A DNA stretch of 64,000 bases, taken from NCBI GenBank assembly GCA_009927165.1, contig RFNO01000038.1, positions 13,574-77,573 on the forward strand. Reading direction: 5' to 3'. The notes beneath the pieces are model-generated. The model was not told where the DNA came from. It saw nothing but the letters and a program-made list of their open reading frames with translations, and did not search any database. This stretch comes from Pseudomonadota bacterium. Its GTDB lineage: Bacteria > Bdellovibrionota > FAC87 > UBA2466. Below are positions 32,793 through 46,547 of this stretch, in pieces; positions within the stretch are counted from its first letter, which is position 1; each line of letters opens with the position of its first letter. Position numbers and translations under genes: made by a program.

Positions 32793-33837
32793 CTCGTTGT
32801 TTTAAAAGGCGTTTTGCCAGCCATGGGCGACAAGCGATAAAAATGAGGAGTATGGCTTGAAGGACAATAGAAATATCCTTAGAAATATTATCACTCAAAA
32901 ACTCAAGCTCTCGTGCAAAGGTTTGTAAGCCACCAAAAAGAAAAGCAGAGGCAATAATTCCAAGTGGATTATTTTCTGCTACGAGAGCTACCGCAATTCC
33001 TGAAAAGCCGTATCCAGGGGAAAAACCCTCGATGACTTTGTGCTCGCTTCCCATAACTTCATTTACCCCAACTAGCCCTGCGAAAGCTCCGGAGATAACA
33101 AATAAGCAGAGTGTTTGTGTTCGAGTACGTATTCCAGCGAAACGAGCTGCGGTAAAATTAGTCCCCATTGCTCGCCATTCATATCCCAGCGCGCTTCGAT
33201 AGAGGATAAGATGAGCCAGTAGAGCACAAAATAGAGCAATGAAAAACGAGAGATTCGCAGGAGTAGTTCTGAAAAGTTCGGTTCCGAACCAAGAAAAAGC
33301 ATTGGAGAATTTTGGGATAAAGTAAGTCGAGGAGATGATCTCGGTCTCGGCACTCTGTGTATTCGGGTTTTTGAGGGGATATAAAATGAGATACCCCACC
33401 CACGTCGTTGCAATAAAATTTAATAGGATGGTAACTACTACTTCATGGCTTCCTCGGTAGGCCTTAAGGTAGCCAGGTATTAAGCCCCATAAGGCCCCAG
33501 CCAGCGCCGCTAAAATTATTCCCAAGGGAATAGCCAGAAAAACGGGTAGCTGAGAAAAATGATGGCTGACTGCTACAATAGCAATAGATCCCCACAGTAA
33601 CTGACCTTCCGCTCCGATATTGAAAAGCCCTGCATGAAAGCAAAGGGCTACTGATAGGCCCGTGAAGATCAACGGGGTTGCATAATAAATCGTATAACCT
33701 AGACCAAAGGGGGAAAAGAAAGTGTTCGAAAATGCTTCCGCTAAAATGGCAGGGTTTTCACCACATGCCCAAATGATTCCAGCGGTTATTAGCCCTATTA
33801 ATACCATGGGAATGAAAATACGATTCACGGTATTCAT
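32776..33837 (-). CDS. ABC transporter permease (BMP/nucleoside-type, first permease)
   Basis: Polytopic. I place the start at ATG 33837 (MNTVNRIF), which forms an ATGA overlap with the ATPase stop. The listed ORF extends to 33858. Confidence 0.8.
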   Translation of the reverse strand: MNTVNRIFIPMVLIGLITAGIIWACGENPAILAEAFSNTFFSPFGLGYTIYYATPLIFTGLSVALCFHAGLFNIGAEGQLLWGSIAIVAVSHHFSQLPVFLAIPLGIILAALAGALWGLIPGYLKAYRGSHEVVVTILLNFIATTWVGYLILYPLKNPNTQSAETEIISSTYFIPKFSNAFSWFGTELFRTTPANLSFFIALFCALLAHLILYRSALGYEWRAMGTNFTAARFAGIRTRTQTLCLFVISGAFAGLVGVNEVMGSEHKVIEGFSPGYGFSGIAVALVAENNPLGIIASAFLFGGLQTFARELEFLSDNISKDISIVLQAILLIFIACRPWLAKRLLKQRGESHD

Positions 33838-35339
33838 GATTCTGTTCCAGTCATACAAAGGCCTAAGTCAGGTAAAGTCCAATTACTGGCTGCTTTTTCT
33901 GCGATAAATGCCCCATTTCTGATGACTAGGATCCTATCAGAGAGAGTCCTTAATTCGTCGAGATCGGATGAAATAAGGAGGATCCCCGCTCCTTCCGCCC
34001 TTAGCTTCCTGAAGTGTTCATGAAAAAACTCCATTGCCCCAATGTCGACTCCTCGAGAAGGATGGCAAGCTAATAAAAATCGCACTCGATCAGAAGCTTC
34101 GCGAGCAATAATTATCTTTTGCTGATTTCCTCCCGAGAGTGTTGCAGTGGACAAATCGGGATGGCAAGGGCGCACGTCAAAATGCTTCAGTTGATCTTGG
34201 GCGAATTGCCGGATGTGTGGAAAAGAAAGACAACCCAGGCCTTGAAAAGGTTTTTCCCAATGATGTCCAAGGATCAAGTTGTACTCGTTAGTAAATGGGA
34301 GAATGAGCCCATTTTTTTGGCGATCCGGAGGAATGACACCAAAACCTCTTTGCCGGTTTTGATAAGCAGTGAAGTTCAGCAGATCTTCACCAAGCATTTT
34401 AATATGACCTGAGAAGCTCTTAAGTTGTGTGAGTACCTGAACCAGTTCCTCTTGGCCCTGTCCTTCGATCCCGGCAATCCCAACGATTTCGCCAGCCGCC
34501 ACGTTCAGTGATAAGTTGCGAAGCTGTAATCCTTTGCGAGATTTCGTACTGAGCGAAGAAACTTCCAGCACTGCAGTTTGGGGCTCAAAAGAACGTTGAG
34601 ACGTGACAGGAACTTGCCGGTCTCGCCCCATCATCAAAGTAGCTAGCTTATGCTCATCGAGTGAGGCAGTGCTTTCCGTAGCAACGACTTTACCCTGCCT
34701 CATGATCGTGACAGTGTCGGTAAATTCGAGAATTTCTCTCAGTTTGTGAGTAATCAAAATAATTGTCTTTTGCTGTTTTTTCAGCTGAAGCAGTCGATTG
34801 AGTAATACCTCCGACTCTTGCGGAGTAAGAACAGCTGTCGGTTCATCAAGAATTAATATGCGGGCTTTCCGGAAGAGTAGCTTTAGAATTTCTACTTGCT
34901 GTTGTTGCCCGACGGGCAATGTCTCAACTTTCTCTTCAAGGTCTAGTGAAAAACCAAAATCGTTTTGGAGTTGCTGAATTGTTGCTAAAAGATTCGTTTT
35001 GGGAATAAACAAAGATGTGGGTTCATGGCCTAAGATGATATTTTCCCAAACTGAGAGTGTAGGTACCAACTTGAAGTGTTGATGAACCATTCCGATCCCG
35101 GCGCGAATCGCTTGATTTGGATTGTTGAATTGCGTGCTAATCCCGTTTAGTAGGATAGTTCCGGAGTCAGGTGAATGAACCCCATAAAGAATTTTCATGA
35201 TGGTCGATTTTCCGGCGCCATTTTCTCCAACAATACCGTGGAATGAGCCCTGCTGTACTTCAAAAGACACAAGGGTATTTGCTGAGTTTCCATTAAAGTT
35301 TTTTGAAACGCGATCAAACTGTAAAAAGGGGAGGGTCAT
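33834..35339 (-). CDS. ABC transporter ATP-binding protein with two fused NBDs
   Basis: NBD1 has Walker A GENGAGKST and Walker B LILDEPTAVL. In NBD2, LSGGNQQK and the Walker B region are recognisable. Confidence 0.9.
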   Translation of the reverse strand: MTLPFLQFDRVSKNFNGNSANTLVSFEVQQGSFHGIVGENGAGKSTIMKILYGVHSPDSGTILLNGISTQFNNPNQAIRAGIGMVHQHFKLVPTLSVWENIILGHEPTSLFIPKTNLLATIQQLQNDFGFSLDLEEKVETLPVGQQQQVEILKLLFRKARILILDEPTAVLTPQESEVLLNRLLQLKKQQKTIILITHKLREILEFTDTVTIMRQGKVVATESTASLDEHKLATLMMGRDRQVPVTSQRSFEPQTAVLEVSSLSTKSRKGLQLRNLSLNVAAGEIVGIAGIEGQGQEELVQVLTQLKSFSGHIKMLGEDLLNFTAYQNRQRGFGVIPPDRQKNGLILPFTNEYNLILGHHWEKPFQGLGCLSFPHIRQFAQDQLKHFDVRPCHPDLSTATLSGGNQQKIIIAREASDRVRFLLACHPSRGVDIGAMEFFHEHFRKLRAEGAGILLISSDLDELRTLSDRILVIRNGAFIAEKAASNWTLPDLGLCMTGTES

Positions 35340-36987: not shown

Positions 36988-37473
36988 ATGCTTAATTTAA
37001 AAAAGGAGCAAGCCCTGGTTCACTTAATCACCCGTTTTGTTCTCTTGGTCTTGGGCGCCTCTCTTATTGAGGGGTGCGGTAATGAGCCTGTCCTTAACCG
37101 TATGGTCACCAGTTTAAATGATTTTTATGCAAAATACGAAGGAATGGATAAAGGAAAATCGTGCTCGGTCATAGTGCATCGAGAGTGGAAAGAAAACAGC
37201 TCTGAATCTAAATCGGTTTATCGAGTTGAAGTCTCCACGAGCTATGAGCACCAAGGGCAGGGACTCGGTAAAGTGATACTCACTTTTGCTCCCACTGGAC
37301 AGGGAAAGATACTTGAGTGGACCAATCCACAAAATGGTGAGTTTTTAAGAATCCAATTATCGGCAGCCAGCGACACACTGCTGGACCCTGTTGCTTTCCG
37401 AATTAAATGGATACACTTCGATCATCTTCACGATGCAACCTGTTCCCAACTAAAAAAGGTAGAAAACCTGTGA
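36988..37473 (+). CDS. putative lipoprotein, unknown function
   Basis: I place the start at ATG 36988 (MLNLKKEQALVHLITRFVLLVLGASLIEGC). The lipobox is atypical (E at -2). The stop overlaps the receptor GTG start (GTGA). Confidence 0.45.
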   Translation: MLNLKKEQALVHLITRFVLLVLGASLIEGCGNEPVLNRMVTSLNDFYAKYEGMDKGKSCSVIVHREWKENSSESKSVYRVEVSTSYEHQGQGLGKVILTFAPTGQGKILEWTNPQNGEFLRIQLSAASDTLLDPVAFRIKWIHFDHLHDATCSQLKKVENL

Positions 37474-39623
37474 AACAAATCGGTTTAATTTGGTTTTTGT
37501 TGGCGGGACTGGCCCTCTCTGCAGAAGAAATAGAAAAACTTCCAGAAATCATTGTTCAAGAAGACTCGGAGAGCACAGCAGTCGAAATGGATAAATCAGC
37601 CGTAATTCCGACATTGCGGTTGCCAAAAGAACGTATTGAACAAAAAAATGCGCCAACTCTGTCAGAGGCCGTAGCTGGTGAAAGCGGAGTAGATGCCCAA
37701 ACCTCTTGTGCTACTTGTGGTTCAAAGCGGGTGACAGTGAATGGTCTTCGAGGAGAACATACAACCATTCTTGTTGATGGTGTCCCTCTGCACTCGGCGG
37801 TTTCCAGTTTTTACGGAGTTGATGCTGTACCCATGTCTGGAGTAGAGTCCATTGAAATTAGTCGAGGTTCAGGAGCGTCTCTCATTGCTCCGGAAGCCAT
37901 CGGAGGGGTACTTAACATCATTACGGAAACTCCTCGAAAAAACGAAGTTGATTTGGCGTTATCTTCGGGAACTTCTCAAAATTGGTTGTTAACAGGGGCG
38001 GCATCAGACACCAAATTATTTAAAAACACCCGATTATTTATTTCCGGTCAGTGGAACCGGCAAGGTTACTGGGATGCTAACAAAAGTGGCGTTTGGGATG
38101 TCGACAAAAATGGTGTTTCCGACGCCCCATTTTTTTCAAATGCTGGAATTTTATCTAAAGTTATTTTTGATTTGGGATCTCGTGACAATCTCGAACTCAG
38201 GTACGCTTGGCAGAATGTGTCCATTCTTGGGGGAACCACTGACGGTACAAAACCCTCTTCTTATTTAGCCATAGTAGACTTGCCCAAGTTTCAGGATAAC
38301 AACGTAGAGAAACCCTACTTAGATTCCCAAATAAAAATATCGGATGTAGTTGGGTTGGAGAGACAAGAAGCAGTTGCTCGGTGGCGACATAGGGTCGGAG
38401 ATAGCGCGCAACTTCAAAGCACTTCTAGTGTCGCGTGGCAGAATCAGGACTCGATTTATTTTCACGGGTATGACTATCGAAACAGAGACTTGTTAGCATT
38501 TCAGGAAGTTCGTTTTTCCACCCCCGTATCGATGGATCATATTTTGACTTTGGGAACGGACGGTCGCTGGGAGGACATGCGCTCTTTTTCGGACAAGCTT
38601 TATGGAATTAAAAAATTGGCTCCCGATGATTTTAACTTTAGAAATGCAGCGCTATTTCTGCAAGACACTTGGCAGATAGGTCTTGATCATGAACTCAACG
38701 TTGCAGGTCGTTTAGATTACCTTCATGTGACTTGGCCATATCAGCAAGATGGACAAAGAACAGTTGAGAAGGTCCTTGCATCTCCTCGTTTGTTCTGGAA
38801 ATGGAATCAATCCCAAGAGTGGATTGGAAGACTGTCCTATGGTCGCGGATATCGAGCACCGTTAAGTTTCTTTGAGTCCCAGCACGGGCTCAGTGAGAAT
38901 GGATTTACGATTGGTCTCTCCGAGATTGAGACAGCGCATTCCTTGGGAGTTTCCGAACAACTGACAACGGGCCCTTGGGAAGTCAATAGCAGCGTTTATG
39001 GAACGTGTTTGAGCCATCTAGCTTATGCTGCAGATCCAGTCGATAACTTTTCGCCGGCTCGATTTGAGAACTTAACAAATGATGTCTGGGTTGTTGCGAG
39101 CGGAGTATCTGGGACTTATCGAAAATCTGGCTGGCTATTTGAATTAGCTCTTGAGGATTTTAGATTGCCCCAAGTATACAAAAAATTGCTTCCAGTCGCG
39201 GCTACTGAGCAGCGAGCGAGGATCCGAGCTGAGAAAAAGCTGGGTTCATGGGAAGTGTCTTTGGCAGCTAATATAACCGGTCCCAGAAATCTGTCGGATT
39301 ACGGATACAATCACCATTTTGTAAACTATGAATCAGTGGATTCTGGCTTGGGACCAGTTGAGGTTCTTAAGGATCGAAAGAATCAAATGGCTCCGTTGTT
39401 TGCTACCCTTGATGTAGGAACATCCTTTCAGCCCACACGAGAGTTAGAAATTGCTCTAAATGTATTCAATGTTACAGACTTTACTCAAACGGGTTGGGGT
39501 GATTCCCCACTTACTTGGAATCAGCATGGTTCAGATCCGGCACATTTTCATTTAGATAACCTTCATGTGTGGGGCCCATTGAGAGGCCGCGTATTTATGT
39601 TTTCTTTAAAGGCGCAAATGTAG
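37470..39623 (+). CDS. TonB-dependent outer-membrane receptor
   Basis: Plug motifs (VTVNGLRGEHTTILVDGVPL, IEISRGSGASLIAPEAIGGVLNIIT) and a long barrel are present. I place the start at GTG 37470, which gives signal peptide VKQIGLIWFLLAGLALSA. Confidence 0.85.
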   Translation: MKQIGLIWFLLAGLALSAEEIEKLPEIIVQEDSESTAVEMDKSAVIPTLRLPKERIEQKNAPTLSEAVAGESGVDAQTSCATCGSKRVTVNGLRGEHTTILVDGVPLHSAVSSFYGVDAVPMSGVESIEISRGSGASLIAPEAIGGVLNIITETPRKNEVDLALSSGTSQNWLLTGAASDTKLFKNTRLFISGQWNRQGYWDANKSGVWDVDKNGVSDAPFFSNAGILSKVIFDLGSRDNLELRYAWQNVSILGGTTDGTKPSSYLAIVDLPKFQDNNVEKPYLDSQIKISDVVGLERQEAVARWRHRVGDSAQLQSTSSVAWQNQDSIYFHGYDYRNRDLLAFQEVRFSTPVSMDHILTLGTDGRWEDMRSFSDKLYGIKKLAPDDFNFRNAALFLQDTWQIGLDHELNVAGRLDYLHVTWPYQQDGQRTVEKVLASPRLFWKWNQSQEWIGRLSYGRGYRAPLSFFESQHGLSENGFTIGLSEIETAHSLGVSEQLTTGPWEVNSSVYGTCLSHLAYAADPVDNFSPARFENLTNDVWVVASGVSGTYRKSGWLFELALEDFRLPQVYKKLLPVAATEQRARIRAEKKLGSWEVSLAANITGPRNLSDYGYNHHFVNYESVDSGLGPVEVLKDRKNQMAPLFATLDVGTSFQPTRELEIALNVFNVTDFTQTGWGDSPLTWNQHGSDPAHFHLDNLHVWGPLRGRVFMFSLKAQM

Positions 39624-39625
39624 CG

Positions 39626-40078
39626 ATGAGTGTGAAGAGCAGTCTAGTTAGCATCGGTATTTTTCTTGCGGCAACCAGCTGGGGCATTTCCTGCCCAGGA
39701 GATTCGCTTTCTGTTTCTGATCCTCTAACCCAGCAACAAACTTGCCTACAGCGATGGAGCTCTAAATCTCTCGTTATGGTAACCGAATCGGATTGTCATT
39801 ACTGTCAATTACTCCTAAAGAGGATTCAGTCCGAAGCTCGAAAGCCAGACCTTTTTGAGTTGGTTTTAGTATGGGTTGATTCCGCTCCTGACTACTGTTT
39901 GAGTGCGGCTCAAAAATTCAGTACTTTAGGGAAGAACGTTTGTTCATCGAGACGTGACGTGGAGCAAAAGTGGAAAATTAATTCGACGCCGACGATCTTT
40001 TGGAAAGAAAAGGGGATTCCCAGAGTTCAAAAAGGTTTGGTCGATACGAATAAACCTCTTCTTTGGAACATTCCTTGA
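39626..40078 (+). CDS. periplasmic thioredoxin-fold protein (CxxC)
   Basis: Start is at ATG 39626, giving signal peptide MSVKSSLVSIGIFLAATSWG. The CHYC motif sits in the context VMVTESDCHYCQLL, and a ...STPTIFW cis-Pro-loop-like region is present. Confidence 0.55.
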   Translation: MSVKSSLVSIGIFLAATSWGISCPGDSLSVSDPLTQQQTCLQRWSSKSLVMVTESDCHYCQLLLKRIQSEARKPDLFELVLVWVDSAPDYCLSAAQKFSTLGKNVCSSRRDVEQKWKINSTPTIFWKEKGIPRVQKGLVDTNKPLLWNIP

Positions 40079-40860
40079 AAATTGATTCAAGCCCACCACT
40101 CATGCTTCTTCAGTCGGTCGCTTACCAGTTCGGTAATCAAGAAAAAATGCTATTTGACGAAATTTATCTCGCTTTAGGAGTTCGGGAAACGATTGTTGTC
40201 CTGGGGCCTTCTGGTGCTGGAAAAACGACGTTGCTAAAACTCATGGCAGGCCTTATCAATCCTATCCACGGAAAAATTCTGTTTCGTGGAGAAGAAGTGG
40301 CTCGCACAAACAAAAAGACTAGCATTGAACTGTCTAAACAGATTGGGATGAGCTTTCAAATGGGTGGGCTCTTGGATACTTTTTCTGTGGGAGGTAACAT
40401 TGATTTCGCTCTTGAGCAGCTTACTTTATTGAATAGAAGCGAAAGAAGTGAAGTGGTCCATTCTGTTTTAGACCAAGTTGGGTTAGCAAAAGTGGAAAAT
40501 TGTCTTTTGGAGGAACTCAGTGGGGGAATGTTGAAGCGCCTTTCTCTCGCTCGTGCGATTGCTCTTGAGCCCAGTATTTTGCTGCTGGATGAGCCTACTG
40601 CGGGGTTGGATCCAGTCACCTCGTTGGAAATTGTGAACCTAATTAAGGATTTTCAGGGGAAAAAACAAGCTTCGGTCGTTGTGGTAACAAGCGATCTCTC
40701 TGTCGCCTTTTCGATGGCTGATAGGTTAGTGTTTCTTTGGAATGGCAAGCTAATTGACGTGGGGACACCGGCACAAGCGCTGAATAGTACTTATCCGGCT
40801 GTAAATCAGTTTATCAGCGGAAAAAGTATCGGGCCCTTAACGGCTGATGAATATGCTTGA
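40063..40860 (+). CDS. Mla-type ABC ATPase paralog 1 (MlaF-like)
   Basis: Walker A GPSGAGKTT, Q-loop GMSFQ, signature LSGGMLKR (as in MlaF), Walker B LLLDEPTAGLD. The H-loop position reads VVVTSDL, with Ser in place of His. ATG 40102 (MLLQSVAYQFG) is an alternative start. Confidence 0.85.
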   Translation: MEHSLKIDSSPPLMLLQSVAYQFGNQEKMLFDEIYLALGVRETIVVLGPSGAGKTTLLKLMAGLINPIHGKILFRGEEVARTNKKTSIELSKQIGMSFQMGGLLDTFSVGGNIDFALEQLTLLNRSERSEVVHSVLDQVGLAKVENCLLEELSGGMLKRLSLARAIALEPSILLLDEPTAGLDPVTSLEIVNLIKDFQGKKQASVVVVTSDLSVAFSMADRLVFLWNGKLIDVGTPAQALNSTYPAVNQFISGKSIGPLTADEYA

Positions 40861-41575
40861 AGTAAAAAATCTTTCAAAAGTGTTGGGAGAGCGACAGGTC
40901 TTGGAAAATATGTCTCTGTCAGTTCAACAGGGAGAGATTCTCTTTGTTCTGGGACGCTCAGGTGTTGGGAAGTCGGTGTTGTTAAAGACAATTGTAGGTT
41001 TAATTCATCAAGATAAAGGAGAAGTATGGATTGATGGGGAAAAAACTCATCCGGAAAGAGAATTAGCAATGGTAGCAGTCAGGCGACAGTGCGGATTAGT
41101 GTTTCAGAGCCCTGCGTTGTTTGATTCCATGACCGTAAAGGAAAATTTGATTTTTGGTGACGAGGATAAAGCAAGACATATTTCAGCAACTATGGCCTGG
41201 TTGAAGCTCCCCGAAAAGATATTAAACTTTTATCCATCGGAGTTAAGTTTCGGATTCCAAAAAAAAGTGAGCCTGTTGCGAACATTGCTTTCTAACCCGA
41301 AGTATCTTTTATTTGATGAACCCACTACAGGGCTCGACCCAGTTACTACAAATTTGGTGAATGATGTAATTCGGGATTGCGCCAAGGCACGAAACATGGG
41401 CTGTCTAGTGGTTTCACACGATCTTCAAAGTGCTTACCACTTAGCCGACAGAATTGTTCTCATTGATCAGGGCAAAATCGCACTGAGTGGAACTCCATCG
41501 AATTTTAAAGAATCAGATTATCCACTTGCCGTGGCTTTTCGTAAAGGAACTATCAATTTTGCTGAAGGCTATTAA
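40847..41575 (+). CDS. Mla-type ABC ATPase paralog 2 (MlaF-like, degenerate signature)
   Basis: Walker A GRSGVGKS, Walker B LLFDEPTTGLD and H-loop VVSHDL are intact. The signature motif is degenerate (LSFGFQKK instead of LSGGM/Q). Confidence 0.85.
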   Translation: MNMLEVKNLSKVLGERQVLENMSLSVQQGEILFVLGRSGVGKSVLLKTIVGLIHQDKGEVWIDGEKTHPERELAMVAVRRQCGLVFQSPALFDSMTVKENLIFGDEDKARHISATMAWLKLPEKILNFYPSELSFGFQKKVSLLRTLLSNPKYLLFDEPTTGLDPVTTNLVNDVIRDCAKARNMGCLVVSHDLQSAYHLADRIVLIDQGKIALSGTPSNFKESDYPLAVAFRKGTINFAEGY

Positions 41576-42344
41576 CAAGGGAATAGAAGGGTTAGGACGT
41601 TGGGCTGAGTTTTCAATCCGAGTGTTCAAGACTTTTACAAGCAAGGGCGTGTCCAGCACTTCACTTGTGGAGCAAATGTATCATGTGGGAGTCCGCTCAC
41701 TGCCTATTACTATTGTATCGGGTTTGTTTGTCGGGGCTATTCTAGCCATCCAGATCAATCTACAGTTGAAGGATTTTGGCGCTCAGACCTTTTTAGGGGG
41801 ACTGAGCACTTCTACTACCTTGCGAAATTTAGGACCAGTTTTGATAGCTTTTTTGCTGTCTGGAAGAGTAGGGGCTTTTACTTCAGCGGAACTAGGGACG
41901 ATGGCAATTACTGACCAATTAAATGCTATACGTTGTTTAGGCATGGATCCTGTTGAGAAAATTGTAGTTCCACGATTAGTAGCACTCACTTGTTCAAGTT
42001 TTTTGTTATTAATTTTGGGGTTGGGAATGACAGTGGTGGGGGGAGTGGTGATTTCATCAGCGCATTTGGGGGTTAATCCTATTCAGTTTTCCCAAAACAT
42101 TTCCCTCTTTGTGTCTTCGTGGAGCATTGGAATCGGAGTGGTAAAAAGTTTTCTTTTTGGACTTATGATTGGAACTATTTCGTGTTTTTTTGGATATCAC
42201 ACAGCAGGGGGAGCCAGAGGTGTGGGCCGTGCCGTTAAACGAACCTCAGTTGCTACATTAGTATCGATTATTTTGATGGATTTTCTTGTGTCCACAGCTT
42301 TGGAAAGCTTGAAAACGTTTTTTGAAATCATGGCAAACTCATGA
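41487..42344 (+). CDS. MlaE-type ABC permease paralog 1
   Basis: The MlaE pattern is present (...TDQLNAIRCLGMDPVEKIVVPRLVA...). The listed start overlaps the ATPase gene by 89 nt. TTG 41559 is a plausible alternative start. Confidence 0.8.
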   Translation: MELHRILKNQIIHLPWLFVKELSILLKAINKGIEGLGRWAEFSIRVFKTFTSKGVSSTSLVEQMYHVGVRSLPITIVSGLFVGAILAIQINLQLKDFGAQTFLGGLSTSTTLRNLGPVLIAFLLSGRVGAFTSAELGTMAITDQLNAIRCLGMDPVEKIVVPRLVALTCSSFLLLILGLGMTVVGGVVISSAHLGVNPIQFSQNISLFVSSWSIGIGVVKSFLFGLMIGTISCFFGYHTAGGARGVGRAVKRTSVATLVSIILMDFLVSTALESLKTFFEIMANS

Positions 42345-43123
42345 GAAACAACGAACAGAGAGTTTTGTTTTTGGGATTTGAAGCCCTTTTAAGCCCCATT
42401 CGGTTGTTTGCAACATCTTGTCGAGTGTTGGTCTTTTCAATAGTTAATATACGGCTTCACGGGCGAGAGATCACCAATCAGATGTTTGAGTCGGCAGTCT
42501 TAAGCCTTCCCATCATTTTGTTTTCGTTAACCATTGTTTCTCTGATGAGTATTTTGGAATTTTCTTGGCATATGAAATTGGTTTTAAAGCAGGATGCTTT
42601 GGTTCCCGGATTCTCAATGGTTTTAATGGTGCGTGAAGTAGCTCCTGTGGTGACAGCGATGCTCTTAACTTCGCGTGTAGGAGCATCCATTGCAGCTGAG
42701 TTAGGATTTATGAAAGTAACCGAGCAGCTAGATCAACTGAAACTACTATCGGTATCTGAAGTTGAGTATCTCGTGATCCCACGTTGGGTTGGGTGTGTTT
42801 TTGCGAGCATCACGCTTACGCTAGCGTCTTTGGTAACTTCAATTTGCGTTTCTACAGGTATCGCTTCTCGATTCATGAACTACCAGCCCCATGAATTTTT
42901 TAATACCTTATTTGTATTTACGAAAGCTTTTGACCTGGGAGGAGGCTTATTGAAAGCATTTTGTTTTGGAACGATTATTCCCTTTGTTTCGTGTGTGTGC
43001 GGGTTGTCGTGTCAAGGCGGGAGCCGGGGAGTCGGGCAAGCGGCCACTCGAGCAGTGGTTCAAAGCTGTTTGTTTATCATTTTTGCTGATTTCTTTCTCA
43101 GTTACTGGTTGTGGACCTTCTAG
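42341..43123 (+). CDS. MlaE-type ABC permease paralog 2
   Basis: The MlaE pattern is present (...VTEQLDQLKLLSVSEVEYLVIPRWVG...). ATGA overlap with paralog 1. Confidence 0.8.
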   Translation: MRNNEQRVLFLGFEALLSPIRLFATSCRVLVFSIVNIRLHGREITNQMFESAVLSLPIILFSLTIVSLMSILEFSWHMKLVLKQDALVPGFSMVLMVREVAPVVTAMLLTSRVGASIAAELGFMKVTEQLDQLKLLSVSEVEYLVIPRWVGCVFASITLTLASLVTSICVSTGIASRFMNYQPHEFFNTLFVFTKAFDLGGGLLKAFCFGTIIPFVSCVCGLSCQGGSRGVGQAATRAVVQSCLFIIFADFFLSYWLWTF

Positions 43124-43278: not shown

Positions 43279-44055
43279 ATGGCACAACAGCACCGAAAAC
43301 AGTTTTGGGTCGGCTCACTTGTTTTAATATCTGTCGGATTTCTATTCGCTTTCACTTGGGGCTTAGGCTTGATCAGCCCTTTAAGTTCAAGCAATCAGTA
43401 CGACGTCTTCTATAATTTTGCTGGCGGGGTAGAGGTGGGAGCACCCGTGAGAGTCAGTGGCATTAAGGTAGGCAAAGTTGAGAAAATTCAGTTTTTGCAT
43501 GAGGAGTTACCCGAGCCGTTCACTGGAACCTCAGTGAAACTCACTGTGAGTGTGAATCAGGAAGCAAAATCACTGGTAAAAGAGGATTCTAAGTTTTATG
43601 TGAATATCGCTGGCATCATCGGCGAAAGATACATTGAAATAACACCTGGAAGCGCCGCTAGTGCCCTGTTAATTCCGAGCTCAAAGGTTCGTGGAATTGA
43701 TCCTCCACGAGTCGATCAACTGCTTTCCCAGGGATACGGCGTGTTTGGAAGAGTACAGGATTTTCTCGAGCAAAATGAAAGCACTTTGAAAGAGCTGCTC
43801 ACCACAGTGAATTCACTGATGACTGATACCAACCAACTCCTAAAAACCGTTGATCGGAAAAAGCTCAACCGGTTGGTAGATAATCTCAATGAAGTCAGCT
43901 CGAATTTTGGAGCACTTTCGCGCGGATTCAGAGAACCAAGAAGTCGGAAATTTGTCGATCAAGTCTATGATTTAGTGGACCGGGCTCACCAAATCGACAA
44001 AGAAGCATTAAAACAATTTTTCCAAGAAGAAGGCGTACGAGCTCGAATTTTTTAA
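43279..44055 (+). CDS. MlaD-like MCE-domain protein
   Basis: It has an N-terminal TM anchor, then an MCE core (FAGGVEVGAPVRVSGIKVGKVEKI ... NIAGIIGERYIEITPG) and a C-terminal helical region. Confidence 0.8.
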   Translation: MAQQHRKQFWVGSLVLISVGFLFAFTWGLGLISPLSSSNQYDVFYNFAGGVEVGAPVRVSGIKVGKVEKIQFLHEELPEPFTGTSVKLTVSVNQEAKSLVKEDSKFYVNIAGIIGERYIEITPGSAASALLIPSSKVRGIDPPRVDQLLSQGYGVFGRVQDFLEQNESTLKELLTTVNSLMTDTNQLLKTVDRKKLNRLVDNLNEVSSNFGALSRGFREPRSRKFVDQVYDLVDRAHQIDKEALKQFFQEEGVRARIF

Positions 44056-44071: not shown

Positions 44072-44587
44072 ATGAAAAAAATTATTTGTCTGATTGCTCT
44101 GGTCATAACAAATCTTACCTATGCCAGTTTTATGGCTGATTTTCGTTTAGAACGTCGTTTCGGAGTAGGGTTGGGGGTAGGGGGCCCTCTCAGTGTCTTA
44201 GGATTAGAAGTTGAATTTAATTTATCATCAGATGTGTCATTGGTCGGAGGAATTGGCAGTGGCCATGATTACTCAACTTTTGCCGCCAGAGGAAAGTATT
44301 TTTTTCTCGGTGACCAAGTGAGCCCTTATTTCTTGCTTGGGTTTGCCCGTTGGTGGAGCCAGGGGACTACCCAAACAGACGTTGGACCAGCAGTCCTCAA
44401 AAATATCTTTCTTCAGGGCGAGGATCCCAGACAAGGTTTCAGCGTTTGGACTGTTTATCCAGGAATTGGTGTCCAATTTATCCACGATTCCGGATTTTCA
44501 ATGTATGCCGAAGCTCACTACTTATTTAAGATGCCGAGTTTTTCAAATGGTACTTATGCCGGGCTAGGAGCTTCCTGGTTCTTCTAA
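44072..44587 (+). CDS. small outer-membrane beta-barrel protein
   Basis: Signal peptide MKKIICLIALVITNLTYA, alternating strands, and a C-terminal aromatic signature ...GLGASWFF. It starts 16 nt after the MlaD-like gene. Confidence 0.55.
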   Translation: MKKIICLIALVITNLTYASFMADFRLERRFGVGLGVGGPLSVLGLEVEFNLSSDVSLVGGIGSGHDYSTFAARGKYFFLGDQVSPYFLLGFARWWSQGTTQTDVGPAVLKNIFLQGEDPRQGFSVWTVYPGIGVQFIHDSGFSMYAEAHYLFKMPSFSNGTYAGLGASWFF

Positions 44588-44597
44588 TCGTTATCAA

Positions 44598-46547
44598 ATG
44601 CGCCGATTTCTTAACTATTTCCAGTCAAGCACACGTAGCTTAAAAACGCAGCTTGCCTTCTATTTCATTCCCGTAACGGTGCTGCCTGTTTTGGGTATTA
44701 GTTATTATGCAACCCACATTTTTGAAAAAAGCACCGAGGAAAGATTATTCCGTCAAGCAGAGTCTGAACAAAGTTTAGTGGTTTCGGAACTAGAAGCAGC
44801 AGAAAAAACCATTTCAGCGCAAATTCGTCGATACGCCAATTTGGATATTTTAATTTCTGCTGTCTCAAGTAAGAGTCCCCAAAAAATCACCCCCATTATT
44901 TCTGGCCTACGCTCCAACGGAAAACTGAGAGTTTATACAGCCGATGGTGATTTTCTTGCTGAAGGAGTGAGCGAACCCAACCTTCATTCGAGAGTCAACT
45001 ACATATCGAGAGAAGGACTAAAAAAAGTAAAAACTCAAGGAATCACAGTCGAGCGCTTTTTTGCTGACGATGGAGCGGGTCTTATTATTCTGGGAAGAGC
45101 GCTGTTGAAAGATGGTGATCGGCTTTATGGGATCTTGGAACAAGAAACTCTCTTCGGTCATGCCCAACTTGCGGAGATTCGAAGTAGACGACAGCTAGAT
45201 GTTATTTTTGTGAAGCGAGACTTTTCTACAGCGACATCAAGTTTGTCTATCGGATCCCAGCGCCTCGTTGATTTTTCCAAGGGGTTATTACAGTCAAAAA
45301 TAGTGGCATCTCATGCCTTCAACCCGATATGGCTGGGAGATGTTAGGTATGCCAGCTATCTGTACGACTTACCTGACATGACTGGGAAAACCAAGAGCTG
45401 GGCTTATCTAGGTATCCTGTTGCCTCTGACTCAAAGCGATCAAACTTCTCGTCAGTTAAGGATTAATATTATCTATATAACTGCTTTCTTGGCATTGGGT
45501 TTTGGATACCTCATCTTTGTTTTCTCAAATCGAATCGTGAAACCGATTGAAGTGCTTGTCGTCGCCATGAAACGAGTGAAAACTGGAAACGTTGAGGAAA
45601 TCCCACCTAACGATTCCAGCTATGAAATCGACTATCTGATCAGTGCGTTCAACGAAATGATACGGAATGTTAGTGCTGCTAAGAGAGCGCTGGAACTGAA
45701 AGTAGATGAGCTTAGAAAAGCTAACGCTGAAATAAAGAGCACCCAGACTACCTTGGTACAATCAGCAAAGATGATCTCCCTGGGACAGATAGTTGCAGGC
45801 GTTGCCCATGAACTGAATAATCCTGTCGCATTTATTTATAGTAATATGCATCATTTGTCGGGATATATAGAAAAAATAAAAGAAATGATTTCCGCCTACC
45901 AGGCTTTGAAAATGGAGATACCAGTAGATAAACGTAAAGAAGTTGAGAATCTTGAGCAAAAACTTGAGATTTCATTTCTCTTAAATGACATGGGTGAGCT
46001 TACCCAGAGTTGTTTAGATGGAGCGAATCGTACCAAGGAAATCGTTCTTGGATTGCGAACATTTTCTCGTATGGATGAGTCAAGCTTTCGACCCTCTGAT
46101 CTCCATGAAGGTCTCAAGAGCACTCTGCGTCTTTTGAGCGCCGAATTAAAAAATCGAATTACCGTTCATCAGGAATTCGGTGAAATCCCGAAAGTCGAGT
46201 GTGCACTTTCACAGATAAATCAAGTGTTCATGAATCTGATCTCAAATGCGGCGCAAGCGATAAATGGGAAAGGCAGTATATGGATTCGAACATACTCTGA
46301 AGAGAAATCCGTTATTATTGAGATTGAAGACTCAGGGATGGGAATGAGTCCCGAAGTAGTGAGCCAAGTTTTTGTTCCGTTTTTTACGACGAAGAGAGTG
46401 GGCGAGGGAACTGGGCTAGGTCTCTCAATAGCTTATGGTCTGATTCAAAAGCATAATGGGCGTATAGAAGTTGAAAGTGAACCGGGAAAAGGTACTTTGT
46501 TTAGAATAATTCTGCCTATCACACAAAGAGTTTCCGAAGCAGGGTAA
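44598..46547 (+). CDS. sensor histidine kinase (2 TM, periplasmic sensor, HAMP, HisKA, HATPase_c)
   Basis: H-box GVAHELNNP, N-box FMNLISNAAQA, G1 EIEDSGMGM and G2 GTGLGLSIAYG are present. There are two hydrophobic segments at residues ~20-40 and ~290-310. Confidence 0.9.
   Translation: MRRFLNYFQSSTRSLKTQLAFYFIPVTVLPVLGISYYATHIFEKSTEERLFRQAESEQSLVVSELEAAEKTISAQIRRYANLDILISAVSSKSPQKITPIISGLRSNGKLRVYTADGDFLAEGVSEPNLHSRVNYISREGLKKVKTQGITVERFFADDGAGLIILGRALLKDGDRLYGILEQETLFGHAQLAEIRSRRQLDVIFVKRDFSTATSSLSIGSQRLVDFSKGLLQSKIVASHAFNPIWLGDVRYASYLYDLPDMTGKTKSWAYLGILLPLTQSDQTSRQLRINIIYITAFLALGFGYLIFVFSNRIVKPIEVLVVAMKRVKTGNVEEIPPNDSSYEIDYLISAFNEMIRNVSAAKRALELKVDELRKANAEIKSTQTTLVQSAKMISLGQIVAGVAHELNNPVAFIYSNMHHLSGYIEKIKEMISAYQALKMEIPVDKRKEVENLEQKLEISFLLNDMGELTQSCLDGANRTKEIVLGLRTFSRMDESSFRPSDLHEGLKSTLRLLSAELKNRITVHQEFGEIPKVECALSQINQVFMNLISNAAQAINGKGSIWIRTYSEEKSVIIEIEDSGMGMSPEVVSQVFVPFFTTKRVGEGTGLGLSIAYGLIQKHNGRIEVESEPGKGTLFRIILPITQRVSEAG

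What the first reader, a model, noticed from the sequence alone, without database searches (positions are those of the whole stretch)
40063..41575. Complementary motif degeneracy in the two tandem MlaF-like ATPases predicts a heterodimer with one dead ATP site
Seen: paralog 1 has consensus Walker A (GPSGAGKTT), signature (LSGGMLKR) and Walker B (LLLDEP). Its H-loop reads VVVTSDL, with Ser where His is expected. Paralog 2 has consensus Walker A (GRSGVGKS), Walker B (LLFDEP) and H-loop (VVSHDL), but a degenerate signature (LSFGFQKK). Established: each ABC ATP site is built from Walker A/B and H-loop of one NBD plus the signature of the partner. Inference: both defects fall into the same composite site (NBD1 core plus NBD2 signature), leaving the other site fully consensus. 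That is the hallmark of asymmetric heterodimeric ABC transporters, and as far as I know it has not been described for Mla-type systems, which use MlaF homodimers.
Basis: partly seen in the sequence, partly recalled or inferred. Interest (0 to 1): 0.7.

Follow-up and report, generated by a model that had tools for sequence, protein, structure and literature searches.

The report
Two-ATPase Mla lipid transporter, one degenerate site
This Mla-type lipid transporter operon encodes two different ATPase subunits and two different membrane subunits, and the ATPases' complementary motif losses are conserved across Bdellovibrio-like bacteria, which points to a motor with only one fully working ATP site, something not yet reported for this transporter family.

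Summary
Both ORFs (40063-40860 and 40847-41575) are MlaF-like ABC ATPases. In gap-free alignments to solved MlaF structures, NBD1 has Ser where the H-loop His belongs, and NBD2 reads LSFGF where LSGGM belongs.

The pattern is not peculiar to this sequence. Twenty-two distinct loci carry the same operon, NBD1-NBD2-MlaE-MlaE-MlaD. They come from Bdellovibrionota/Oligoflexia, including B. bacteriovorus, plus one Leptospirales MAG.
- Of 146 NBD1-type cluster representatives, 145 lack the H-loop His and 91% also have Walker B Glu->Asp. All keep the SGGM signature and the Walker A Lys.
- All 120 NBD2-type representatives have a bulky residue in place of the first signature Gly. All keep the catalytic Glu and His.
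- Fifty-three single-copy MlaE-MlaF-MlaD loci from other phyla are fully consensus.

NBD1, NBD2 and the two MlaE paralogs each form their own clade, so the duplications are old.

The best reading is an obligate F1-F2-Ea-Eb heterotetramer with one ATP-binding but hydrolysis-impaired site and one consensus site. Heterodimerisation and loss of catalysis are inferred, not shown. The same motif logic exists in PatAB, E. coli LivFG and a tandem ABC in this window, so this is a new variant of a known kind. No paper describing it for Mla/MCE systems was found.

The parts
40063..40860 (+). NBD1: MlaF-like ABC ATPase with a degenerate catalytic core. The start is probably ATG 40102, giving 252 aa.
   Evidence: (P0001). 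The best PDB matches are MlaF chains. It carries a MlaF-like C-terminal QF..G...GPL tail.
40204..40230 (+). NBD1 Walker A GPSGAGKTT, consensus. The Lys is 100% conserved in the clade.
40516..40539 (+). NBD1 signature LSGGMLKR, consensus. It would complete the active site of NBD2.
   Evidence: S-G-G-M is 100% conserved in 146 NBD1-type representatives.
40579..40596 (+). NBD1 Walker B LLLDEP. The Glu is kept here, but 91% of NBD1-type relatives have Asp.
40678..40698 (+). NBD1 H-loop VVVTSDL. Ser (AGC, 40690-40692) replaces the catalytic His.
   Evidence: (aligned to MlaF VVVSHDV). The clade has N 81% and S 13%, with His in only 1 of 146.
40847..41575 (+). NBD2: MlaF-like ABC ATPase with a consensus catalytic core and a degenerate signature. 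Its start overlaps the end of NBD1 by 8-14 nt.
   Evidence: (P0121).
40952..40975 (+). NBD2 Walker A GRSGVGKS, consensus.
41243..41266 (+). NBD2 degenerate signature LSFGFQKK. Phe (TTC, 41249-41251) replaces the first Gly, and Phe (41255-41257) replaces Met/Gln.
   Evidence: All 120 NBD2-type representatives have a non-Gly residue at this position (Y 76%, F 18%).
41306..41323 (+). NBD2 Walker B LLFDEP. The Glu is 100% conserved.
41408..41425 (+). NBD2 H-loop VVSHDL. The His is 100% conserved.
41487..42344 (+). MlaE-a permease paralog. The likely start is TTG 41559, which overlaps the NBD2 stop.
   Evidence: Pfam MlaE E 3.6e-62. Start discussed. The Ea clade is monophyletic.
42341..43123 (+). 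MlaE-b permease paralog. Its ATG overlaps the MlaE-a stop by 4 nt. It is 28% identical to MlaE-a.
   Evidence: Pfam MlaE E 3.6e-53. The Eb clade is monophyletic.
43279..44055 (+). Single MCE-domain protein, MlaD-like, 258 aa. About 130 residues follow the MCE domain.
   Evidence: Pfam MlaD E 7.5e-17, residues 39-124. Present in the paired loci.
44072..44587 (+). Small secreted protein resembling an outer-membrane beta-barrel, conserved directly after MlaD. It is a probable outer-membrane partner; this is an inference.
   Evidence: Weak Pfam OMP_b-brl hit, 25.9 bits, below the cut-off. Homologues follow MlaD in 15 of 20 paired loci and end in Y[YF]F or WFF.

Best explanation
Proposed assembly. 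The locus encodes a Mla/MCE-type (type VIII) ABC transporter whose core is an obligate heterotetramer: NBD1, NBD2, MlaE-a and MlaE-b. A ring of the single MlaD sits on top, and a small outer-membrane protein is probably attached.

The two ATP sites. In the NBD1-NBD2 dimer the two composite sites are not equivalent.
- Site I is built from the NBD1 Walker A, Walker B, Q-loop and H-loop plus the NBD2 signature. It keeps everything needed to bind ATP: the Walker A Lys, the A-loop Phe and the Q-loop Gln. It has lost the H-loop His, in most relatives also the catalytic Glu (to Asp), and the partner's first signature Gly (to Phe or Tyr).
- Site II is built from the NBD2 core plus the NBD1 signature. 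It is fully consensus.

Proposed mechanism. Site II does the hydrolysis that drives the MlaE conformational cycle. Site I holds ATP and acts as a structural or allosteric latch, as in other asymmetric ABC transporters.

What is shown and what is inferred.
- Shown: the motif states, their registers, their conservation, the paired gene architecture and the old duplications.
- Inferred: physical heterodimerisation, loss of hydrolysis at site I, and which MlaE pairs with which NBD.
For: 1. Registers are fixed by gap-free alignments to solved MlaF and other ABC structures.

2. The operon NBD1-NBD2-MlaE-MlaE-MlaD occurs in 22 distinct loci.
- 21 of 22 NBD1 lack the His. The exception, L016, has Walker B DD.
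- 18 of 22 have Walker B DD.
- 22 of 22 NBD2 have a non-GG signature together with DE and His.

3. Cluster-level tallies.
- NBD1-type, n=146: His in 1; DD in 91%; signature SGGM 100%; Walker A Lys 100%; Q-loop Gln 100%.
- NBD2-type, n=120: signature position 3 is Y/F/L/I/V in 100%; Glu 100%; His 100%.
- Ordinary MlaF, n=94: all consensus.

4. Controls. Fifty-three single MlaE-MlaF-MlaD loci from other phyla, found in the same scan, are all consensus and use a different gene order.

5. NBD1, NBD2, MlaE-a and MlaE-b are each monophyletic with similar internal branching. Both subunit types were therefore duplicated once and kept together.

6. Stop and start codons overlap through NBD1/NBD2/MlaE-a/MlaE-b. 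This fits equimolar co-translation.

7. The triad of changes (Walker B E->D, loss of the H-loop His, and SGG->SxG in the partner) is exactly how the degenerate site of PatAB is defined (PMC9541285). It recurs in E. coli LivF/LivG and in the window's own tandem ABC ATPase.

8. The asymmetry extends beyond the motifs. NBD1 keeps a MlaF-like C-terminal GPL tail, and NBD2 lacks it in 85-99% of sequences.
Against: - There are no biochemical or structural data for any member.
- The window's NBD1 still has the catalytic Glu, as do 8% of the clade. Ser or Asn at the H-loop, or Asp at Walker B, might allow slow hydrolysis, so 'degenerate' is safer than 'dead'.
- No multimer model could be made with the tools at hand, so NBD1-NBD2 contact is inferred from motif logic and gene linkage only.
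- The trees are neighbour-joining on about 250 columns without support values.
- The sampling of single-copy MlaF was biased towards similarity to NBD2.
Confidence: 0.8

Rival explanations
1. Both ATP sites hydrolyse. The Ser/Asn H-loop, the Asp Walker B and the S[FY]G signature are tolerated lineage-specific variants, so the heterodimer is structurally asymmetric but catalytically near-symmetric.
For: - The window's NBD1 keeps Walker B Glu.
- Walker A, the Q-loop and the D-loop of NBD1 are 100% conserved.
- In PatAB, the degenerate H-loop residue still influences the rate of the cycle.
Against: - Three independent catalytic elements of the same site are altered, while the equivalent elements of the other site are invariant.
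- Variability at the altered positions (N/S/T/A/G at the H-loop; Y/F/L/I/V at signature position 3) points to relaxed constraint rather than a new optimum.
- From established ABC enzymology (own knowledge): mutations of the H-loop His and the Walker B Glu nearly abolish hydrolysis in many ABC ATPases.
Confidence: 0.1
2. There are two separate homodimeric transporters, NBD1(2)-MlaE-a(2) and NBD2(2)-MlaE-b(2) or the converse, that share MlaD. Under this reading the complementarity of the defects is coincidental.
For: - Canonical Mla and Mce systems use NBD homodimers (PMC7790496; PMC9882608).
- Nothing here measures the stoichiometry.
Against: - An NBD1 homodimer would have two sites without His, and mostly without Glu.
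- An NBD2 homodimer would have two sites with a broken signature.
- There would be no reason for NBD1 to keep an invariant signature or for NBD2 to keep invariant catalytic residues.
- The four genes are always adjacent in the same order, with overlapping stops and starts.
- The complementary pattern holds in 22 of 22 loci against 0 of 53 controls.
Confidence: 0.06
3. NBD1 is a pseudo-ATPase accessory subunit. It would act as a regulator or stabiliser, functionally analogous to MlaB, and would bind the complex outside the canonical NBD dimer. An NBD2 homodimer would power transport.
For: - No STAS/MlaB gene is present in the operon.
- NBD1 evolves somewhat faster than NBD2: 54% against 59% identity for P0002 and P0123, which lie on a contig of the same length.
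Against: - An NBD2 homodimer would carry the degenerate signature in both sites.
- The NBD1 signature, D-loop, Q-loop and Walker A are invariant, as expected for a subunit inside the dimer and coupled to a permease.
- The permease is duplicated too, which matches two different NBD docking partners.
Confidence: 0.04

Closest known systems
E. coli / A. baumannii / P. aeruginosa MlaFEDB (type VIII ABC lipid transporter)
   Same: - MlaE-family permease, MCE-domain MlaD and MlaF-like NBD are all present.
- MlaF chains are the best solved-structure matches of NBD1.
- NBD1 keeps a MlaF-like C-terminal tail.
   Different: - The known complex is MlaF2E2D6B2, with identical NBDs, identical permeases and near-perfect two-fold symmetry (PMC7790496). 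Here there are two NBD paralogs (32% identical) and two MlaE paralogs (28% identical), and one ATP site is degenerate.
- No MlaB, MlaC or MlaA gene is in the operon.
- The gene order is F1-F2-Ea-Eb-D.
- NCBIfam MlaF and MlaE equivalog scores are far below their cut-offs.
Mycobacterial Mce1/Mce4 (YrbEA/YrbEB + MceG2 + MceA-F)
   Same: - It is an MCE-family transporter with a heterodimeric permease pair encoded by adjacent genes (PMC9882608; PMC10517005).
   Different: - MceG is a homodimer, encoded elsewhere and shared between systems. It has no degenerate site.
- Mycobacteria use six different MCE proteins. Here there is one.
Asymmetric heterodimeric ABC exporters (PatAB; by own knowledge also TM287/288, TmrAB, LmrCD, EfrCD, TAP1/2, CFTR and other ABCC proteins)
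   Same: - The same three substitutions fall in one composite site: Walker B E->D and loss of the H-loop His in one NBD, and SGG->SxG in the partner. The second site is consensus (PatAB: D490, Q521, SAGQ).
   Different: - Those are type IV exporters with the NBD fused to the TMD. Here the NBDs are separate polypeptides on a MlaE (type VIII) scaffold topped by an MCE ring.
- There is no homology beyond the NBD.
E. coli LivFG (HAAT-family importer LivFGHMJ/K)
   Same: - Two separate NBD genes and two different permease genes.
- LivF has a consensus signature (MSGGEQQM) but H-loop VEQN.
- LivG has a consensus H-loop (IEHD) but signature LAYGDQRR, with Tyr at the first-Gly position as in Bdellovibrio NBD2.
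   Different: - It is a substrate-binding-protein-dependent amino-acid importer whose LivH/LivM permeases are unrelated to MlaE.
- LivF keeps Walker B Glu.
CUT2-type tandem ABC ATPases (example in this window, 33834-35339, minus strand)
   Same: - The N-terminal NBD has signature LPVGQQQQ.
- The C-terminal NBD has H-loop ISSDL (His->Ser, as in NBD1) with degenerate Walker A and Walker B.
   Different: - The two NBDs are fused in one chain.
- Walker A is also lost, so the site probably cannot bind ATP normally.
- The permease family is different.

Membership tests
Mla/MCE (type VIII) ABC transporter | MlaE-family permease (PF02405) | tested here: met
   Two ORFs hit with E 3.6e-62 and 3.6e-53. 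TIGR00056 scores 201.9 and 155.1 bits, just below its 212.2 cut-off.
Mla/MCE (type VIII) ABC transporter | MCE-domain substrate-binding protein (PF02470) encoded alongside the permease and ATPase | tested here: met
   ORF 43279-44055 hits PF02470 with E 7.5e-17.
Mla/MCE (type VIII) ABC transporter | MlaF/MceG-type ABC ATPase | tested here: met
   NBD1: the top PDB hits are MlaF chains, and MceG (8fed) scores E 3e-40. NBD2: MlaF chains score E 2e-39. Both cluster with MlaF-type NBDs in the tree.
Proteobacterial MlaFEDCB-MlaA pathway (orthologue of E. coli Mla) | Equivalog-level match to MlaF, MlaE and MlaD | tested here: not met
   NF008809 MlaF scores 158.6 and 134.7 bits against a 441 cut-off. 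NF033619 MlaE scores 165 and 115 against 315. TIGR04430 MlaD scores 67.9 against 135.
Proteobacterial MlaFEDCB-MlaA pathway (orthologue of E. coli Mla) | MlaB (STAS), MlaC and MlaA partners | tested here: inconclusive
   None is in the operon or in its flanking genes in the window, L001 or L003. The rest of the genome could not be searched.
Proteobacterial MlaFEDCB-MlaA pathway (orthologue of E. coli Mla) | Homodimeric MlaF2 and MlaE2 encoded by single genes | tested here: not met
   There are two NBD paralogs and two MlaE paralogs, each an old clade.
Asymmetric ABC transporter with one degenerate nucleotide-binding site | Two non-identical NBDs | tested here: met
   NBD1 and NBD2 are 32% identical. 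They form separate clades.
Asymmetric ABC transporter with one degenerate nucleotide-binding site | Non-consensus H-loop and/or Walker B Glu in one NBD | tested here: met
   The window has His->Ser and keeps the Glu. In the clade, His is lost in 145 of 146 and Glu->Asp occurs in 91%.
Asymmetric ABC transporter with one degenerate nucleotide-binding site | Non-consensus signature in the partner NBD, so that all defects fall in one composite site and the other site is consensus | tested here: met
   The window reads LSFGF. All 120 relatives have a non-Gly residue at position 3. The NBD1 signature and the NBD2 catalytic residues are invariant.
Asymmetric ABC transporter with one degenerate nucleotide-binding site | Physical NBD heterodimer, with ATP bound but not (or only slowly) hydrolysed at the degenerate site | not testable with these tools
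   This needs purification, ATPase assays on single-site mutants, nucleotide trapping, or a structure or multimer model.
Type IV heterodimeric ABC exporters (TM287/288, PatAB class) | Type IV exporter transmembrane fold fused to the NBD | tested here: not met
   The NBDs are stand-alone proteins of 242-265 aa, and the permeases are MlaE family.
Mycobacterial Mce systems | YrbEA/B permease pair plus six distinct Mce proteins and a shared MceG homodimer | tested here: not met
   A permease pair is present, but there is only one MCE gene and there are two dedicated NBD genes. The Mce architecture is taken from PMC9882608.

The most novel reading that the evidence does not exclude
Bdellovibrionota, and at least one Leptospirales lineage, run their only operon-encoded Mla-like lipid transporter as a fully asymmetric F1-F2-Ea-Eb machine. 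In it, a permanently ATP-loaded degenerate site replaces MlaB-type regulation, and one ATP is spent per cycle. Together with a split 'long MlaD plus outer-membrane barrel' bridge, this would be a distinct, one-directional trans-envelope lipid conduit. In predatory bacteria it could be relevant to envelope remodelling or to uptake of prey lipid. It would also be a natural single-site mutant for settling the stoichiometry and direction of Mla transport.
Probability: 0.2. Interest if true: 0.75.

Novelty: new variant of a known kind. Interest (0 to 1): 0.58.

Why it matters
Every structurally and biochemically studied MCE transporter (MlaFEDB, Mce1) has two identical ATPases. How many ATPs a cycle needs, and how the two-fold ABC core talks to the six-fold MCE ring, are still open questions.

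A whole phylum that has fixed a version with one consensus site and one degenerate site, plus a heterodimeric permease, offers a natural dissection of those questions. It also occurs in a genetically tractable organism: the B. bacteriovorus HD100 NBD1 orthologue is CAE81167.1.

The finding adds a fourth, independent origin of the same three-substitution solution, alongside type IV exporters, HAAT importers and CUT2 ATPases. That supports the view that a non-hydrolytic ATP latch is a general, repeatedly selected design in ABC motors.

There is a practical consequence. Both genes are currently named 'ABC transporter ATP-binding protein' or 'phospholipid/cholesterol/gamma-HCH transport system ATP-binding protein', which hides the distinction.

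Tried and rejected
- Shifted-register explanation: rejected. The alignments to solved MlaF structures are gap-free, and there is no nearby His or GG.
- Sequencing error: rejected. Each changed codon differs by two bases from the consensus codon, and the changes are conserved in homologues.
- Idiosyncrasy or pseudogene of one genome: rejected. The pattern is conserved across 22 loci and more than 260 cluster representatives.
- Rfam scan of the window, run to place the organism: no hits. Its closest relatives are unnamed MAGs at 54-62% identity, and the nearest named loci are Pseudobdellovibrionaceae and Oligoflexia at 50% or less.
- Exhaustive profile search of 1.84 billion representatives with an NBD1 profile: the top list was dominated by two-domain ABC proteins, whose two domain scores add up, so it gave no clean census. 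It did show about 21 distinct 50%-identity clusters of degenerate NBD1-type proteins. It also revealed fused tandem MlaF-like proteins.
- AlphaFold2 on the 171-aa OMP-like protein without an alignment: pLDDT 30.8, uninformative.
- Heterodimer modelling: not possible, because the structure tool takes one chain only.
- Literature: nine full-text searches and six papers read found no description of heterodimeric or degenerate NBDs in Mla/MCE systems. Grasekamp et al. mention only 'several duplications' of MlaDE in Gracilicutes. The library lacks many subscription papers, so absence is not proof.
Full report
**1. What is in the window**

On the + strand lies a run of tightly packed genes.

| Coordinates | Product |
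|---|---|
| 37407-39623 | TonB-dependent receptor |
| 39569-40078 | thioredoxin-like protein |
| 40063-40860 | ABC ATPase (NBD1) |
| 40847-41575 | second ABC ATPase (NBD2) |
| 41487-42344 | MlaE-family permease (MlaE-a) |
| 42341-43123 | MlaE-family permease (MlaE-b) |
| 43279-44055 | one MCE-domain MlaD-like protein |
| 44072-44587 | 171-aa secreted protein with a weak outer-membrane beta-barrel match |
| 44598-46547 | histidine kinase |

Family assignments come from Pfam and NCBIfam.

Stop and start codons overlap along the core of the operon.
- The NBD2 ATG (40847 or 40853) lies before the NBD1 stop at 40860.
- A TTG at 41559 gives a MlaE-a start before the NBD2 stop at 41575.
- The MlaE-b ATG at 42341 overlaps the MlaE-a stop at 42344.

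The database gene call for NBD1 is 252 aa (P0001). That length fits a start at ATG 40102.

**2. Check of the observation**

NBD1's best matches among solved structures are MlaF chains (7d06, 6z5u, 6xbd; E 5e-43 to 3e-41). The printed alignments run without gaps through all motifs.
- GPSGAGKTT aligns with GPSG[TI]GKTT.
- LSGGMLKR aligns with LSGGM[NA]RR.
- LLLDEP aligns with IM[YF]DEP.
- VVVTSDL aligns with I/VVVSHDV.

Ser210 (AGC, 40690-40692) therefore occupies the H-loop His position.

NBD2's LSFGFQKK aligns with LSGGEKQR, MSGGQKQR and LSGGMRRK of solved ABC proteins. Its Walker A, Walker B and H-loop are consensus.

There is no alternative His or GG nearby, and each changed codon is two substitutions away from the consensus codon.

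**3. Is it more than a quirk of one sequence?**

*Protein searches.* The two searches and motif extraction from alignments gave a clean split.
- The 24 closest relatives of NBD1 all lack the H-loop His (S/T/A/G), and 14 of them have Walker B DD instead of DE.
- The next hits are ordinary MlaF proteins with T-H-[DE].
- All 120 best relatives of NBD2, including named Bdellovibrio proteins, have a bulky residue at the first signature Gly, most often ISYGMQKR.
- Several NBD1-type and NBD2-type hits report the same longest-contig length, which suggested that they are neighbours.

*Genomic context.* This was confirmed directly. Bdellovibrio sp. NC01 (L001) and an ENA metagenome contig (L003) both carry ABC-ABC-MlaE-MlaE-MlaD followed by a small protein. 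The Bdellovibrio NBD1 reads ISGGMQKR / IFYDDP / ITNDM.

*Genome survey.* A scan of one genome per GTDB species with an NBD2 alignment returned 80 loci. I called their ORFs and classified them with phmmer and hmmalign.

| | Paired loci | Single-copy loci |
|---|---|---|
| Number of loci | 22 distinct | 53 |
| Source | Bdellovibrionota/Oligoflexia, including B. bacteriovorus kdesi and a Bacteriovorax stolpii MAG; one Leptospirales MAG (L031); the window | many other phyla |
| Gene order | NBD1-NBD2-E-E-D | MlaE-MlaF-MlaD |
| H-loop His | absent from NBD1 in 21 of 22 (the exception, L016, has Walker B DD) | present |
| Walker B | DD in 18 of 22 NBD1 | DEP |
| Signature | non-GG in 22 of 22 NBD2, with DE and His intact | [LI]SGG |

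*Profile search.* A third search with an NBD1 alignment gave 120 more Bdellovibrio-type NBD1 clusters. All 120 have DD, and 119 have Asn at the His position.

*Pooled tallies.*

| Class | n | H-loop | Walker B second acid | Signature | Other |
|---|---|---|---|---|---|
| NBD1-type | 146 | N 81%, S 13%, His in one sequence | Asp 91% | S-G-G-M 100% | Walker A Lys 100%, Q-loop Gln 100%, D-loop 100% |
| NBD2-type | 120 | His 100% | Glu 100% | position 3: Y 76%, F 18%, L/I/V for the rest | - |
| Ordinary MlaF | 94 | His 100% | Glu 100% | consensus | - |

**4. Evolution**

In neighbour-joining trees, NBD1, NBD2, MlaE-a and MlaE-b each form a single clade across the paired loci. Their internal groupings are similar: the window groups with L003, L020 with L022 and L008, and L001 with L013 and L010.

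Within the window, NBD1 and NBD2 are 32% identical, and MlaE-a and MlaE-b are 28% identical. Both subunit types were therefore duplicated long ago and inherited together.

The exhaustive representative search shows about 21 distinct 50%-identity clusters of degenerate NBD1-type proteins. The family is diverse.

**5. Mechanism**

Established ABC knowledge, as stated in PMC9541285, is this. Each ATP is sandwiched between the Walker A of one NBD and the signature of the other. The Walker B Glu and the H-loop His form the catalytic dyad.

*Site I.* It is made of the NBD1 core plus the NBD2 signature, and it collects all three kinds of defect. It nevertheless keeps the ATP-binding elements: the Walker A Lys, the A-loop Phe (95%) and the Q-loop Gln.

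*Site II.* It is made of the NBD2 core plus the NBD1 signature, and it is invariant consensus.

*The selection argument.* NBD1 keeps a perfect signature that its own dead core cannot use. NBD2 keeps perfect catalytic residues that its own signature cannot serve. That is only explained if the two proteins complete each other, which means a heterodimer.

The duplicated permease and the overlapping genes fit a 1:1:1:1 core.

I therefore conclude, with confidence about 0.8, that this is an obligate asymmetric F1-F2-Ea-Eb transporter. Site II hydrolyses ATP, and site I binds ATP as a latch or allosteric site.

The heterodimer and the loss of hydrolysis are inferences. In the window's own NBD1 the catalytic Glu is still present, so 'degenerate' is safer than 'dead'.

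The asymmetry also reaches the C-terminus. NBD1 keeps the MlaF-like QF..G...GPL tail, and NBD2 lacks it.

**6. Rivals**

- *Both sites active, with the substitutions tolerated (0.10).* The variability at exactly the altered positions, set against invariance at the partner site, argues against it.
- *Two separate homodimeric transporters (0.06).* Each homodimer would have two defective sites, and the conservation pattern would be unexplained.
- *NBD1 as an accessory pseudo-ATPase outside the dimer (0.04).* The invariant signature, D-loop and Q-loop of NBD1 and the duplicated permease argue against it.

**7. Comparison with what is known**

*Membership.* This is a Mla/MCE-type (type VIII) ABC transporter by its MlaE, MCE and MlaF-like parts. 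It is not an orthologue of the proteobacterial MlaFEDCB system. The equivalog scores are far below cut-off, there is no MlaB, MlaC or MlaA in the operon, and each core subunit has two paralogs.

*Known MCE architectures.* Studied MCE transporters have identical NBDs.
- MlaF2E2D6B2 has near-perfect two-fold symmetry (PMC7790496).
- Mce1 has a YrbE1A/B heterodimer but an MceG homodimer (PMC9882608; PMC10517005).

*Systems that work the same way.*
- The pattern matches the definition of the degenerate site in PatAB: D490, Q521 and SAGQ.
- I verified the same complementary pattern in E. coli LivF (MSGGEQQM; VEQN) and LivG (LAYGDQRR; IEHD).
- It is also present in the window's own tandem CUT2-type ATPase, with LPVGQQQQ in the N-terminal NBD and ISSDL, a degenerate Walker A and a degenerate Walker B in the C-terminal NBD.
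- From my own knowledge, not tested here: CFTR (LSHGH, NBD1 Ser at the His position) and other ABCC proteins follow the same scheme.

The principle is therefore known and recurrent. Its occurrence in the Mla/MCE family, phylum-wide and combined with a heterodimeric MlaE pair, is what is new.

*Literature.* Nine full-text searches and six papers read gave no prior description. Grasekamp et al. only note duplications of MlaDE in Gracilicutes.

**8. Verdict**

- Novelty: a new variant of a known kind.
- Interest: about 0.58. A specialist would find it a useful and somewhat unexpected natural experiment, testable in B. bacteriovorus, rather than a new principle.

Noticed in passing
window 44072-44587 (+), with MlaD at 43279-44055: A 171-aa secreted protein sits 16 nt after MlaD. 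It has a weak OMP beta-barrel match and ends in ...GASWFF. Homologues follow MlaD in 15 of 20 paired loci, all ending in Y[YF]F or WFF. With the 258-aa MlaD (TM + MCE + about 130 further residues), the pair resembles a split form of the 'long MlaD' (TMD-MCE-helix-beta-barrel) described in Veillonella (PMC10665443). The single-sequence AF2 model was uninformative.
   Followed up: partly
window 33834-35339 (-): This is a tandem (CUT2-type) ABC ATPase next to a Bmp-family lipoprotein and a permease. The N-terminal NBD signature is LPVGQQQQ. The C-terminal NBD has Walker A GIEGQGQEE, Walker B LLACHP and H-loop ISSDL. It is a second, independent ATPase pair in the same window with one degenerate ATP site.
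   Followed up: partly
window 37407-40078 (+); also L003 2613-5226: A TonB-dependent receptor and a thioredoxin-like protein abut or overlap the NBD1 gene in the window lineage, and a histidine kinase follows the operon in both loci. They may form one transcription unit linking an outer-membrane receptor to the MCE transporter. This linkage is absent in Bdellovibrio proper, where mdh-sucCD lies upstream.
   Followed up: no
L031 6276-10125 (uncultured Leptospirales MAG): The same NBD1-NBD2-MlaE-MlaE-MlaD operon occurs outside Bdellovibrionota, with the same logic and stronger decay. NBD1 reads GPGGHGKTV / LLLDDP / VTTNI. The NBD2 signature is TPFSIKKR. Whether this reflects horizontal transfer or old shared ancestry is unresolved.
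   Followed up: no
P0361-P0364 (about 550 aa); locus L085 5001-6668: These are fused tandem MlaF-like proteins. The C-terminal NBD has a mildly degenerate signature (ISSGQ, ISNGE, VSAGE), and all catalytic residues are intact in both halves. The P0361 gene is not adjacent to any MlaE or MlaD gene. This is another, independent asymmetric form of MlaF.
   Followed up: partly
L087 2725-4207 (E. coli K-12 livF, livG): LivF (VEQN H-loop, consensus signature) and LivG (LAYGD signature, consensus H-loop) show the same complementary degeneracy. A full-text search for LivG, LivF and 'degenerate' found no paper discussing it.
   Followed up: partly
L016 6240-7007; also P0367, P0377, P0415: A few NBD1-type proteins keep the H-loop His but have Walker B DD. 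Conversely, the window, L008, L012 and L020 keep DE but have lost the His. The two catalytic losses were therefore not acquired in a fixed order.
   Followed up: no
L005 5046-7729: In one Pseudobdellovibrionaceae MAG, NBD1 and NBD2 are separated by about 1.1 kb instead of overlapping. The intervening sequence was not examined.
   Followed up: no
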